In this document: piece after piece, positions 16,701-22,700 of the stretch
Layout of the letters: each line of letters begins with the position of its first letter
How positions within the stretch are numbered: the stretch's first letter is position 1
Origin: Saccostrea cucullata
Taxonomy: Eukaryota
Direction: 5' to 3'
Assembly (NCBI RefSeq): GCF_032062105.1
Contig: NW_026933001.1
Location: 372,001-436,000, forward strand
Length of the DNA stretch: 64,000 nt
Program-made: the position numbers and the translations under genes
The notes under the pieces: model-generated
The model's database searches: none
The model's input: the letters and a program-made list of their open reading frames with translations, nothing else
Told to the model about the DNA's origin: nothing

Positions 16701-19700
16701 CTGCAATTCCTGCCAAGATGATGAAGGCAAGCTACCAAATGATCAGGAAAAACAAGAAACAGTCACAGTTTATGAGTTATACTCATGCAGTTACTTCAAA
16801 ATACAATTAAACATTAGTAATATTAAATTTTCTTAACTGTTATGGTAGCAATGAAATAGGTACTGCATGCACAGTAAATGTGAAATTGTCTTCATTCCTT
16901 TATGACTTTGTAACAATAAATGGTCCATTCCATATGGTCCTTCAAGACAACAGCACTGTACTATATCAGTAACATACAGCGTATCCTCTACACAAAATGT
17001 GTAAATTTCTTTTGTCATCTAGACTATAGTCTTAATTTCTAGTATATAAAGTCACAAACATGGCGCAGCGCCTGCTCTAGAGTTGCGAAGTAAGGAGTTG
17101 ATCCTTACGTTGTGGGTTCGAATCCCACTGTGGAACGTGGAGAGGTCCTTCGGATGAGATCGTATAAACCGAGGTCCTGCGTTGCAGTAGGTGCTGGCAC
17201 GAAAAAGATCCCTCCCTGGTCAATGGCCCTGAGTGACAAGTATAGGACCAAATTTGCAACTCTCCACCGGCAAGTGGTGACATCTCCATATGAGTGAAAA
17301 ATTCTCGAGAGGGAAGTTAAACAATATACAATCAATCAATCAATCTAGTATATAAAGGATACAGCTAGTTTGGTTCCAGCACTGGACACCCATATGCTGA
17401 AGAATGGATTCTTCAGTTGGATTCCTCTAGAAATAAAAAAAAATTTAATCTGATTAAACAGCAAAAATACAACTTTTTATTACTAAAATGTATCTACATG
17501 TACATGCTGTACTTATGCATACTAAAATATACCGAAATTCATTATGCGACAAATTTCACAAAACCACTCCAAAATGTAGAGATTTGATAGGAGACTATTC
17601 ATTTGACTACACTTTGACCCAATCACTTTCAATCTGTTGATACCTTTCACACATGTCAAAGACAAAGAGACAGATAGATCCAAAGATAATGGCCGACAGG
17701 TGTTTCCAATACAGGCTCAGGCGATTTCTCTCTGTCTGGTCCTGAAAGATGAGTAGGAATTTCTAAAAATCCATTCTACATTTCCTGATTAATATCAAAG
17801 TATTACATACTTATCCATTAATTACATTTCATGCACACACATTTGTAAAAGTGACAAGTTAATCCCTAGAAATTGATATGATGTATGCTTTTGTGCAAAA
17901 AATAATTTGGAAGTTTGCTGTTTGCAAAGAAAATTGCTTGTAACTTCTCCATCTTCTGACGTCAACAAATCATAAAATATATTGTCCCAATAAAATAAAT
18001 AAATGTAACGCCCATACCATGATATGCTCGCCAGCAAAGATAACCCAGAATGACATCAACATAGCATAGAATGCTCCCTGACGGATGTCATTCAATAGCA
18101 GCATGAAGGGGACATTCAGGCCAAACTGTAGCAGCTCAATGGGACCTGAAATGAAAACTTGACCTGTTAAAATCATTCCAACTAAAAAAAATAAATCTGT
18201 ACATAGAAAGCCTCTTCTAAACTTAATTTTATGTCAAGGGCTCAAGGCCCAATTAACTGTTTTCCTTTACTGTCATTTGTAATGAAATGGGCAAGAAATC
18301 ACAGACCAAAATAATTAATTTATCTCAACAGGGCCAAAGGTCAAGGTGAAATTCTAAACTTCAAAACCAGCATCCTGATGAACTATCTAAGAATCCATAT
18401 GATTATCAAATGACAAGACATTACAAAGCTTAACATACAGAACAGAAAAATTCATGGTTCAGAAGAAAAGAGGAAGAAACATCTAAATTTGTAATTCAGT
18501 TAATAATGAATCGTGTGAAAAAATTTCCTTGTACTCTCACTTGTCCTCTCACTTCATCATCTTTTGAACCATATTGTGATCAATATTAGAGATTGGTTAT
18601 CATATTCTATCTGTACTTCAAATCAAACTTTATTCAAGAGAACTTCATTATAAACATCAATTTCCCAAGAATGTATATTTGTACGTACACAAGAATAAAA
18701 TTCTCTTCAAAACCCTATATATATTATAATTAGCATTCAATTTATTACCAACCAGTATCATGAATAATCACAATACATGTACAATTGCATCTCAAATATA
18801 CAGATACAGTCACAAAAAATATATACACTGTATTAACATGATCCCTTGCACAATATACATGGATGGAGAATTTAACTGTTTTGCTTCAAGTTTTTTTTTA
18901 ATCAGAAAGTATACTCACAATTAAGGATTGACATAACTACTCCTAAGGCAAACAGAGTTCTGAAAACAAATATCACATTTCAATTTCATCCTTGTGTAAC
19001 AAAACATCAGCTTTCACCTATAAATGTCTCATACATTTTTTATACTCTTTTAAAAATCAAAATTTGGAAATTAATAGAGAGTGTGCATTTATGAAATATA
19101 ATACCCATAGCTGGACCCACTGTTCCTCCATTAATGATACAAATACCATGTAATTCCTAGTTAACAACTTTTCCAAACATTGCTACTTTTCTATAAGATT
19201 GAGTATTCGCAATATCTAGTCCCTCGTACATGTATTATCCATCATATTTGGAGGCCTCCCTTGCTAGTCTATAGTTTTATACTGAGGTGAAATTTCTACC
19301 TTTCTAACAGATTTGGTGGTCTCCCTAGCTACCCTATATTTTTCTATTCTACCTTTCTAACAGATTTGGTGGTCTCCCTAGCTACCCTATATTTTTCTAT
19401 TCTACCTTTCTAACAGATTTGGTGGTCTCCCAAGCTACTCTATATTTTTCTATTCTACCTTTCTAACAGATTTGGTGGCCTCCCTAGTTAGTCTATATTT
19501 TTCTATTCTACCTTTCTAATAGATTTGGTGGCCTCCCTAGTTAGTCTATATTTTTCTATTCTACCTTTCTAACAGATTTGGTGGTCTCCCTAGCTACCCT
19601 ATATTTTTCTATTCTACCTTCTAACAGATTTGGTGGCCTCCCTAGTTAGTATATATTTTTCTATTCTACCTTTCTAATAGATTTGGTGGCCTCCCTAGTT

Positions 19701-22700
19701 AGTCTATATTTTTCTATTCTACCTTTCTAATAGATTTGGTGGTCTCCCTAGTTAGTCTATATTTTTCTATTCTACCTTTCTAATAGATTTGGTGGCCTCC
19801 CTAGTTAGTCTATATTTTTCTATTCTACCTTTCTAATAGATTTGGTGGTCTCCCTAGCTACTCTATATTTTTCTATTCTACCTTTCTAACAGATTTGGTG
19901 GCCTCCCTAGCTGCATGATCCTCCTCCAGAACCAGATAAGTATAGACAGGACCAGTAAGAACATCACACTCTTCATTGTCACCCACACAATGGTGAACCC
20001 TCCATTCTGATGTATTACCTACAAAGACAATACTTAATATAGTCTTTGTGGACTAAGCAGAAATAGCATCAATTCAGCATACATGTATATGTTTTCTTAC
20101 TGCTCAGTTTTGTAGCATGTTCTACTTTTGACCTGTATCAAACATGGATTAAATATTGTGCACAGGGTCAAATCTATATATACTTACATGAATGTACATA
20201 TCCACCAATTTGCCGATACCAACATTGAAGCCTTTCAAGGCATTAACAGGAAGCCTGATATTCACCAAATAGAAATGATGATGGATGCTTCCCAGCTCAA
20301 AAAGCTGCAGGAGTTCACAGTCATACAAATAGCCCTCCAATTTGTTCTTGTCCTAAATGAATTAAACAGAGATAGAATATGATAAAAATATTCTGACCAT
20401 GGGAGAATTCCAGACAAACTTATACTCTCCATTTCCTGTCATCTCTTCATTGCTTCTGTATGGTTGTTTATACTGAACAGCATTCAGACATTGCACTGAT
20501 ATTGTTGTCTTTGCTTTAAACATTATACGAATTCTATGGTATTCAAACTACTATAATTTTAGCAGAATAGAGACTCTGGATTTTTACATTCCCAAAAGCT
20601 ATAAAGTGTTGGCAAAATTTGAATAGAACAGTGATTTAGTTAGAGTTACTTCCCTTGGAAGCAAAAGGTGCAGTCTAAATTACCTTCTCATATGCAATTT
20701 TTATAGGATAATTTTTTTTGGGGGGGGGGAGGGGGGATCTTAATTTTGAAATTAGACTTCAGCTGCGTTTTTCAGTGAACAGACAGCTGACTGATTTTAA
20801 TATGTCAAGTGGACCTATGTTTTTGTGTGTTTATGTGTGGAAATGTTAGCATGGAACCTTGCTGTAAAATCACATGATTTTCAAAATGAATCATGAAAAG
20901 AATAAACACTTTTTACAAACTCTCTAAAATACAAATCTATGAATTGAACCCGAGTGTCATGGTCATTCTTTTATTATAATTTGATATTCATGTACATGTA
21001 TTTGAAGCAGGTATGCATTTACAATTATATAGAATAACAAGCTACCCCTTTAAATTAACTTACCAGCTTACACTGTAGATTGTGACTTACCAGCTTACAC
21101 TGTAGATTGTGACTTACCAGCTTACACTGTAGATTGCGATCTTCCACAGAGCTTGCCAGGAGTTTCCAGTCATCGTCTTGGTCCTCTTCGTCTCTGACCC
21201 CCATACGAACATCCAGCTGGAGAATGGGGTCCTTAGCTGAAAATTATGTAAAGTAACTAAATATACTGTCATCATTATGACATGTGACAATAGTTATAAT
21301 CTTAAAAACCAAATCATTTTATAGTAATTTTCATCAACCAGTTTGTTTAATATAATCTATAATGCACAAACTGAAGTCTAGATAAATCATCATGAACTAT
21401 GAACAATAGTTTTCTGAAGAAGTAAAAAAAATGGTTAAAAATCATATTATGTAAAATATACATGATACTTTTAGCTTTGTATACTAGTACAAGGTTGTTT
21501 TGAACAATGATTTTCCTCTTCACTTCAATATTCAGTTCATACATTAACATTCTAATCTGACTTAAAAGAAAAATATTTTCATTTATAACAGACAAAAGTC
21601 CTGTTTGATTCTTTGGATCAATTCTCTTACACAGTGGTACTTGTAAGTTTTTTTCCACATCCAGCTGTAGGACTCCTAACATGGACTGGAACAGGGGAGA
21701 CATTTTCCTCTCGGCCCCGTCTCTTGGCCCTGGGATCCAGAAGGAAAACACTACCTGCTTCTCGGTGATGGAATTTTTTATGATGTTCTCATCATACGGG
21801 TCTAGAGATGGCAGTTCCTCACATTTATGTGGACCCCGCGGAATGAACCATTTTGTCCTGTTTAACCTGCTTCCTCTATCGTAGCATTTGGTGGCCAACA
21901 CAGTGACAACATTGGATGGCTTTGGTGCTGAATTGAAATCAAAAGAGAAATCATTGAAATTACTAGAATTAATTAACAATTATAAGAAGACTTCAAAGAA
22001 TCAAAGAGTTGCAGAGGTATCTCAAATAAAATACATGATGTCAACATAATAATCCTAGCATCCTACCTTAGTTCACTGTTCCTATGATAGGAGAATTACA
22101 AGCATTAGCAAACTGAATTGTGAAAAATGATTACATCACAATTCATGACTTAATAATATATTTTTTTAAAAAGGTTTATTACTGGTTAGGTACTATTTTC
22201 AGAATTAAACAAAAAAATCCATATATAGCCTCTCACAGTCATGAAAATTAACAAATAAGTATCATTCATAATAAGTTGAGTGAACAAAGAAAAAACATAT
22301 GTCCGATTTTTTTTTTGCGATACATTGATATTTCTTCATATGTATTGATTTGTGTATCTTAATCATACAGAATTGATAGTTATTATCGATATTTTGTCCC
22401 AGCTTTATACCCCTCCCCTACCCCAGGCAGAAGGCTGTATATATATTCTCCTGTAATTTAATTAGCTCTTTCATGGAGCTTCATTCATTCTACAATATCT
22501 GCAGCATTCTATGACTTACCAATTGAAAAATTTACTACTTCATTTTAACAGGTAGGGACCAACTGCCCAAATGGGATATAATAGTCCGTTTGGGATATAA
22601 TATCCCAAATGGGCTATAAATTTACAGTGCAAAAAATGAAAATTTTTATTTTGGCAATAAATATCATAAATCCGCATCAAAACACTTTAAAAGGAATAAC

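What the first reader, a model, noticed from the sequence alone, without database searches (positions are those of the whole stretch)
19244..19912. wls intron 5: twelve copies of a weak AG|GTAGAA donor
Seen: the minus-strand unit is AGCTAGGGAGGCCACCAAATCTGTTAGAAAG (exonic, encoding [10 protein letters not shown]) plus GTAGAATAGAAAAATATAGAGT (intronic). The array fills about two thirds of the 922-nt intron, with a 13th degenerate copy at the distal end. Reading past the first donor gives AGG TAG, so any downstream copy introduces a stop. The spliceosome must choose the first of about 12 near-identical sites, or the transcript is predicted to go to NMD. Variant sites (GGCC/GGTC, AAC/AAT, GCTACC/GTTAGT) are shuffled among copies, suggesting ongoing slippage or conversion that could also touch the coding copy.
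Basis: partly seen in the sequence, partly recalled or inferred. Interest (0 to 1): 0.7.

Follow-up and report, generated by a model that had tools for sequence, protein, structure and literature searches.

The report
Repeated splice donor in oyster wntless
The end of one exon of the Wnt-secretion gene wntless, with its splice signal, is repeated 12 times into the next intron; two related animals lack the repeat and the transcripts seen end the exon at the first signal, so it is likely a tolerated example of a repeat type known from human, lancelet and chicken genes, and this genome likely holds hundreds more.

Summary
In detail: a 53-bp unit (31 exon-like + 22 intron-like bases) gives 12 tandem AAG|GTAGAA donors in the 922-nt intron 5 of wntless, and any later donor puts a stop at codon 276. 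It is a junction-spanning minisatellite ("mirage"; human F7, CBS, IFI6; lancelet; chicken "exon stuttering"), and the scan has noted this kind before in this and at least 38 genomes. Two relatives have a single donor, so the array is young. All RNA seen splices at donor 1, but no RNA from a proven array carrier was available, so NMD coupling and copy-number effects are untested; the F7 precedent argues against them. Added here: such arrays are common in this genome (21 of 78 sampled donor-word arrays start in a Pfam-recognised exon end, 2 of 70 far ends), donor arrays appear several times commoner than acceptor arrays, and variants shared among intronic copies are 1.4-fold enriched for changes that are synonymous in the exon's frame (51 seen, 35.6 expected, 33 loci), which suggests that exon alleles flow into the arrays. 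Verdict: new member of a known kind; likely neutral.

The parts
13770..24070 (-). wntless (wls) coding span, 13 exons, 547 codons
   Evidence: exon model translates without stop; Pfam WLS_GOLD and WLS-like_TM; RNA joints for introns 1-6
19882..20018 (-). wls exon 5; its last 31 bases (19882-19912) are the coding copy of the repeat
   Evidence: Pfam PF06664 E 0.00095; RNA ends the exon at 19882
19294..19912 (-). 53-bp junction-spanning minisatellite, 12 donors AAG|GTAGAA, mean 3.2 differences between full units
19874..19884 (-). donor 1, the only one that keeps the reading frame to exon 6
   Evidence: 12 + 15 reads of organism B and contigs of organism A join here to exon 6
19299..19828 (-). 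donors 2-12 (pseudo-sites); use of any gives a stop at codon 276
   Evidence: no joint or loose end listed at donor 2, but organism B lacks these copies
19277..19299 (-). original start of intron 5, now behind donor 12; shared with two relatives that have one donor
   Evidence: contigs of X5 and X9 run from exon 6 through 19277-19327 straight into exon 5
19235..19265 (-). 13th, degenerate copy of the exon end (24 of 31 bases), no donor
18919..18959 (-). wls exon 6; its acceptor at 18960 is the only AG in intron 5 with 10 or more pyrimidines in the 15 bases before it
21058..21136 (-). second donor array in the same gene (intron 3): 27 bp x 3, identical copies; later donors add 9 or 18 codons without a stop
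   Evidence: 3 + 11 reads join at donor 1
57025..57474 (-). third donor array in the window, in another gene: 34 bp x 6 plus 5 decayed copies filling a 467-nt intron
   Evidence: gene identity not established (no Pfam hit on two exons)

Best explanation
The array is a young minisatellite that spans the wls exon 5 / intron 5 junction, and it is likely tolerated because the spliceosome likely uses the donor nearest the exon, leaving the 11 later donors as silent intron. Shown: anatomy, stop after later donors, absence in two relatives, first-donor splicing in all RNA seen. Inferred: a short duplication across the junction was amplified and reshuffled by unequal crossing-over, conversion or slippage; the exon-like half of the unit still exchanges with exon alleles, which feeds synonymous variants into the copies; rare use of a later donor would give a 275-residue stub on an mRNA predicted to be removed by NMD, as error disposal and not as regulation. 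It is one of likely several hundred such arrays in this genome.
For: Single donor in DNA contigs of organisms B (X5) and C (X9). Donor 1 joined to exon 6 in 12 + 15 raw reads of B and in one contig each of X1 and X2 of organism A; the X2 contig equals the window over exon 6. At the intron-3 array, where later donors would be in frame and visible, 3 + 11 reads use donor 1 and no other joint is listed; B's DNA contig spans that array with 630 letters for 631. Precedent: only the most upstream F7 donor is used with 8-12 monomers (PMC1557585); lancelet mirages do not disturb splicing (PMC3087553). Class is common here: GGTAAGT three times at period 22-52, 1899 matches against 222 for the reversed word, and 1876 against 115 at period 53-82, though the single word is rarer than its reverse, 117,497 against 159,714; 21 of 78 donor-word arrays start in a Pfam-recognised open frame, against 2 of 70 far ends. 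Periods show no bias to multiples of three (12 of 45), as expected if later donors are seldom used. Synonymous excess among shared variants: 51 of 107, expected 35.6, p 0.0004; locus bootstrap 1.22-1.71; wrong frames 16 against 23.5 and 22.7.
Against: No RNA from a proven carrier of the array: B lacks it, organism A's intron allele is unknown, and contigs drop minor forms. Read numbers are small (14 at intron 3; joints under 3 reads are not listed and 16 weaker joints were not shown). In human IFI6 and CBS two pseudo-sites are used besides the authentic one (PMC1557585 introduction). The array was not seen in raw DNA reads, and the assembly holds only one wls allele. GGTGAGT triples are not enriched over their reversed word (774 against 1015). 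Copies next to the exon are not more like it than middle copies, so exchange shows no polarity.
Confidence: 0.8

Rival explanations
1. The array is a tuning device: later donors are used at a rate that grows with copy number, sending part of wls mRNA to NMD and lowering Wnt secretion (a copy-number splicing QTL).
For: Stop at codon 276 lies 759-1288 nt before the last junction. Donor matches only 5 of 9 consensus bases. Pseudo-sites are used in IFI6 and CBS (PMC1557585 introduction). NMD would hide such products in ordinary RNA.
Against: Array absent in two relatives, so not conserved. Copy number did not alter choice in F7. The in-frame intron-3 array shows only donor 1 in 14 reads. No bias of periods to 3n over 45 arrays.
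Confidence: 0.12
2. The spare donors are kept by selection as extra U1 landing sites that help the weak first donor or protect the transcript from premature cleavage, which would explain why donor arrays outnumber acceptor arrays.
For: Donor-word triples are enriched and acceptor-word triples are not (473 against 432, 422 against 557, 125 against 84). A 467-nt intron in the window is filled with 11 donor copies of different ages. U1 roles beyond splicing are recalled, not tested.
Against: Relatives splice the same donor without copies. Arrays also occur at strong G|GTAAGT donors. The asymmetry also follows if acceptor arrays are simply more harmful and purged.
Confidence: 0.05
3. The array is an assembly artefact.
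For: Not seen in raw DNA reads; relatives lack it; one allele in the assembly; copy 6 has a one-base loss that may be a read error.
Against: Copies carry shared, shuffled variants, not scattered errors, and a spacer that differs from the original intron start. Arrays of the same class recur in independent contigs of the assembly (L058/L132, 20.3 copies each at 98% identity; L128/L131).
Confidence: 0.03

Closest known systems
Human F7 intron 7 37-bp VNTR, with IFI6 (6-16), CBS intron 13, lamin B2 and PDGF intron 4 minisatellites (PMC1557585; read: abstract, synopsis, introduction, passages of results and discussion)
   Same: First monomer spans the exon-intron boundary; the donor is repeated in the intron; first site keeps the frame; comparable unit and copy numbers.
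   Different: Here 31 of 53 bases are exon-derived (4 of 37 in F7); length polymorphism of the wls array is not shown; splicing was tested by minigenes for F7 and only by RNA of relatives here.
Amphioxus 'mirages' (Adh3, globins BflGb6 and BflGb9, troponin C, PGBD5) (PMC3087553, passages incl. section 16; PMC3902484, one passage; the original Adh3 paper not seen)
   Same: Tandem copies of exon-intron boundaries, at donor and at acceptor ends, concerted evolution within the cluster, a more diverged far-end copy (here 0.148 against 0.074 for middle copies), no evident splicing defect.
   Different: Described gene by gene; the passages read give no genome-wide count, no donor/acceptor ratio and no test for exchange with the coding copy. 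Different phylum.
Chicken 'exon stuttering' (PMC12954441; read: abstract, sections 7 and 9, passages of 8, 13 and 16)
   Same: Genome-wide set (236 introns, 115 genes) of exon-edge copies spanning the border, median exon part 36 bp, 1-44 copies, donor or acceptor.
   Different: There tied to GC-rich dot chromosomes and called unreported in other vertebrates; here an AT-rich (about 33% GC) invertebrate genome. The sections read give no donor/acceptor split; Fig. S5 and other supplements were not read and may hold one.
Splicing-associated tandem repeats in GTEx (PMC10078293; passages)
   Same: Repeat length can change splicing in cis.
   Different: Motifs up to 20 bp acting through RNA-binding proteins or spacing, not copies of the splice site; no such effect shown here.

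Membership tests
Junction-spanning minisatellite (mirage / F7-type / exon stuttering) | Head-to-tail tandem array with a unit of 10-100 bp | tested here: met
   53 bp x 11.7, 95% matches
Junction-spanning minisatellite (mirage / F7-type / exon stuttering) | Terminal unit overlaps a real exon and its splice site | tested here: met
   Pfam hit on exon 5; RNA ends the exon at 19882
Junction-spanning minisatellite (mirage / F7-type / exon stuttering) | Splice signal repeated in the intron | tested here: met
   11 further AAG|GTAGAA sites
Junction-spanning minisatellite (mirage / F7-type / exon stuttering) | Local origin, single locus | tested here: met
   One match in the genome (the search skips very common words); single donor in two relatives
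Junction-spanning minisatellite (mirage / F7-type / exon stuttering) | Authentic site used mainly or only | tested here: inconclusive
   All RNA seen uses donor 1, but from animals without the array or with unknown allele
Junction-spanning minisatellite (mirage / F7-type / exon stuttering) | Copy number varies between alleles | not testable with these tools
   No genomic reads of the window's own species among the runs laid; one allele in the assembly
Regulated AS-NMD (conserved poison donor) | Stop-bearing alternative site conserved in relatives | tested here: not met
   Later donors absent in organisms B and C
Regulated AS-NMD (conserved poison donor) | Isoform appears on NMD inhibition | not testable with these tools
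   No such RNA run was offered
Wntless (WLS) host gene | GOLD domain followed by WLS transmembrane domain | tested here: met
   PF21883 on exons 2 and 3, PF06664 on exons 5, 7, 11

The most novel reading that the evidence does not exclude
In this oyster-type genome, splice junctions of hundreds to thousands of genes nucleate minisatellites, donors several times more often than acceptors, and the intronic copies stay in sequence exchange with the coding exon edge: they store exon alleles and can write them back, so exon ends evolve in concert with their introns. The donor/acceptor imbalance would be a genome-wide readout of how the spliceosome chooses among identical sites (the site nearest the exon body, with acceptor arrays paying a higher cost).
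Probability: 0.35. Interest if true: 0.65.

Novelty: new member of a known kind. Interest (0 to 1): 0.36.

Why it matters
For wls alone it matters little: it is a further case of a known, tolerated layout. The wider class matters more. Hundreds of natural arrays of identical donors and acceptors in one polymorphic species would let one test splice-site choice (5'-to-3' scanning against nearest-to-exon definition) without constructs, since scanning predicts trouble at acceptor arrays and exon definition does not. The synonymous excess in non-coding copies, if confirmed in phased genomes, would show that exon edges take part in minisatellite turnover, which bears on short-read variant calls at exon ends and on the duplication model of intron gain.

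Tried and rejected
Donor-only class: rejected; acceptor arrays also end in real exons (3 of 16 acceptor-word places with a Pfam hit; one more, L100). Pure first-come scanning as the whole rule: it cannot cover acceptor arrays, where the last site keeps the frame (use inferred from the frame, no RNA). Purifying selection on the copies: rejected; non-synonymous sites vary as much as intron-like sites (transitions 0.047 and 0.060, transversions 0.020 and 0.019 per possible change) and 14 stop-creating variants occur. CpG decay as the cause of the synonymous excess: excess stays without CpG in either allele (42 of 92, expected 27.4). Polarity from the exon: none (mean rho 0.08, 15 positive, 11 negative of 27). 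Bias to 3n periods: none. Random sampling: 264 kb around the window held 4 clear donor arrays, too few, so targeted sampling was used. Reversed-word counts are noisy: they count overlapping matches, long arrays dominate, GGTGAGT went the other way, AGGTAGA (1042 against 373) includes a satellite family, and the control list itself holds donor-like arrays by eye. Run X23 had only 3 reads on the stretch. Papers: PMC12783039 and PMC10078293 (passages) were not relevant precedents. Searches for an oyster report, for a donor/acceptor asymmetry and for synonymous bias or conversion with the coding copy listed nothing on point; the library lacks most subscription papers. The age of the 13th copy is unexplained: 23% diverged, yet the relatives stop aligning just before it.
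Full report
1. Observation. On the minus strand a 53-bp unit is repeated 11.7 times at 19294-19912, giving 12 sites AAG|GTAGAA from 19881 to 19299. The first 31 bases of the array are the end of exon 5 of wntless: a 13-exon model gives an open frame of 547 codons, its exons hit WLS_GOLD and WLS-like_TM, and RNA confirms the joints of introns 1-6. Intron 5 is 922 nt, 64% of it array; a decayed 13th copy (24 of 31 bases, 0 of 2000 shuffles) has no donor. Any later donor gives a stop at codon 276, at least 759 nt before the last junction; the 50-55 nt NMD rule is recalled from vertebrates and not tested in this animal. 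The donor matches 5 of 9 consensus bases, ordinary for this gene. The animal is taken as an oyster from earlier scan notes on this genome, not from a test of mine.

2. Age. DNA contigs of organisms B (X5) and C (X9) run from exon 6 through the original intron start (19277-19299) straight into exon 5, with one donor. The array is therefore younger than the split from these relatives, whose exons differ from the window by several percent. Full units differ by 3.2 bases on average and 7 of 10 pairs of informative sites show all four combinations, which fits repeated unequal exchange or conversion.

3. Which donor is used. Reads were laid on two flanking stretches holding two donors each, not on the whole array, so copy number was not measured from reads. 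In organism B, 12 and 15 reads leave exon 5 at 19882 for exon 6, but B has no array, so this does not test choice. Spliced contigs of organism A (X1, X2; listed as DNA, yet they skip introns) also use donor 1, and X2 equals the window over exon 6; its intron allele is unknown and contigs drop minor forms. A second array in the same gene is a better test: intron 3 starts with 27 bp x 3, later donors would add 9 or 18 codons without a stop, B's contig spans it at full length, and 3 + 11 reads use donor 1 with no other joint listed (threshold 3 reads, 16 weaker joints not shown). In human F7 only the most upstream of identical donors is used, also with 8-12 monomers, whereas IFI6 and CBS use two pseudo-sites as well (PMC1557585).

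4. The class in this genome. The window alone has three donor arrays. Genome-wide, GGTAAGT three times at period 22-52 gives 1899 matches against 222 for the reversed word and 1876 against 115 at period 53-82, although the single word is rarer than its reverse. GGTAAGA gives 1413 against 598, AGGTAGA 1042 against 373, GGTGAGT 774 against 1015. By place, contigs up to C2638 hold 22 GGTAAGT arrays, 7 control arrays and 6 TTTCAGG arrays; scaling 22 places per 100 matches gives roughly 400 for that one word and period range, duplicates of the assembly included. I fetched 78 donor-word arrays (70 of the first-listed places for four patterns, plus 8 AGGTAGA places picked outside the satellite family; one more fetched place, L151, did not match and was dropped). 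In 21 of 78 the open frame that ends at the first donor hits a Pfam family at E 0.01 or better; at the far end 2 of 70 do (8 cut by the locus end), and both look like junction arrays in another orientation. Acceptor arrays exist too: 3 of 16 acceptor-word places end in a Pfam-recognised exon that starts at the last acceptor, but acceptor words are not enriched (473 against 432, 422 against 557, 125 against 84). The donor excess is thus likely several-fold, but it is not corrected for the true number of sites of each word.

5. Exchange with the coding copy. In the wls copies all 4 substitution sites of the exon-like part are third-position, synonymous changes (chance about 0.02, noticed post hoc). 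I tested this on 54 arrays with an assignable frame (Pfam-supported, tier A, or the clearly longest open frame, tier B); 4 were dropped for fewer than 2 detected copies, 33 of 50 had variants shared by 2 or more copies. Arrays with ambiguous or no frame were left out; one of them, L065, had been seen in a first pass to carry 3 shared non-synonymous variants. Shared variants are synonymous in 51 of 107 cases, against 35.6 expected when each change is reassigned to same-base sites of its own locus (p 0.0004; tier A alone 30 of 60 against 22.4, p 0.014). Locus bootstrap of the ratio is 1.22-1.71, 19 loci above and 10 below expectation, unchanged without wls; wrong frames give a deficit and removing CpG contexts leaves 42 of 92 against 27.4. 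Single variants show a smaller excess (52 of 164 against 40.4). Per possible change, synonymous sites vary 2 to 2.5 times as much as non-synonymous or intron-like sites, which are alike. This points to exon alleles entering the arrays (at birth by unequal crossing-over between alleles, or later), not to selection on the copies. The reverse flow, array to exon, is not shown, and there is no gradient from the exon.

6. Mechanism. Most likely (0.8) a tolerated by-product: a short duplication across the junction, amplified and reshuffled, with the site nearest the exon body used and rare errors lost to NMD. Shown: anatomy, stop, youth, first-donor use in the RNA at hand, the class, the synonymous excess. 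Inferred: donor choice in carriers, NMD, the recombination route. Rivals: copy-number tuning through NMD (0.12), selected extra U1 sites (0.05), assembly artefact (0.03).

7. Known kinds and novelty. It works like, and meets the testable features of, the junction-spanning minisatellites of human F7, CBS, IFI6, lamin B2 and PDGF (PMC1557585), lancelet mirages at both exon ends (PMC3087553, PMC3902484) and chicken exon stuttering (PMC12954441). The scan has 122 notes with these words in at least 38 genomes, two of them shown for this genome. The wls array is a new member of a known kind. The donor/acceptor imbalance and the synonymous excess were not found in my searches (scan notes), but the library is partial and the chicken supplements were not read. 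Interest 0.36.

Noticed in passing
window 21058-21136 (-): Second donor array in wls (intron 3), three identical 27-bp copies with in-frame later donors; likely shared with organism B, whose 14 reads use donor 1.
   Followed up: partly
window 56995-57474 (-): A 467-nt intron of another gene holds 11 donor copies, 6 fresh and 5 decayed, suggesting repeated rounds of growth; the exons resemble a choline-transporter-like (SLC44) gene by recall only, no Pfam hit.
   Followed up: partly
window 16100-16110 (-): wls intron 11 appears to be a GC-AG intron (CAG|GCAAGT) in the exon model; not checked in RNA.
   Followed up: no
window 22400-23900: wls intron 1 holds a high-copy element with inverted repeats; contigs of X5 pile up thousands-fold here, likely a MITE or other transposon.
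   Followed up: no
window 49738-50543: Array of about 166-bp units (4.8 copies), a length recalled for an oyster satellite family.
   Followed up: no
G000:C15138:331554-334043 (L017-L018): A 31-bp x 71 donor array that starts at the end of an open frame, 2.5 kb long.
   Followed up: partly
L084, L085, L134: One gene present in three copies, each with an acceptor array of different length (about 50 units in L085, roughly half that in L134) and, in two, a further 53-bp array of 15 and at least 24 units; alleles or paralogues not resolved.
   Followed up: partly
L100 and L137: Two arrays picked by a donor word are junction arrays in another orientation: an acceptor array before a helicase-type (AAA_11) exon and a donor-like array on the opposite strand.
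   Followed up: partly
window 19910: Exon 5 site where organisms B, C and one contig of organism A differ from the window, while all 12 copies and the 13th carry the window's base; the array may sit on one haplotype of a polymorphic species.
   Followed up: partly
G000:C5458:6992-12790: An 81-bp acceptor-like array of more than 70 units, not fetched.
   Followed up: no
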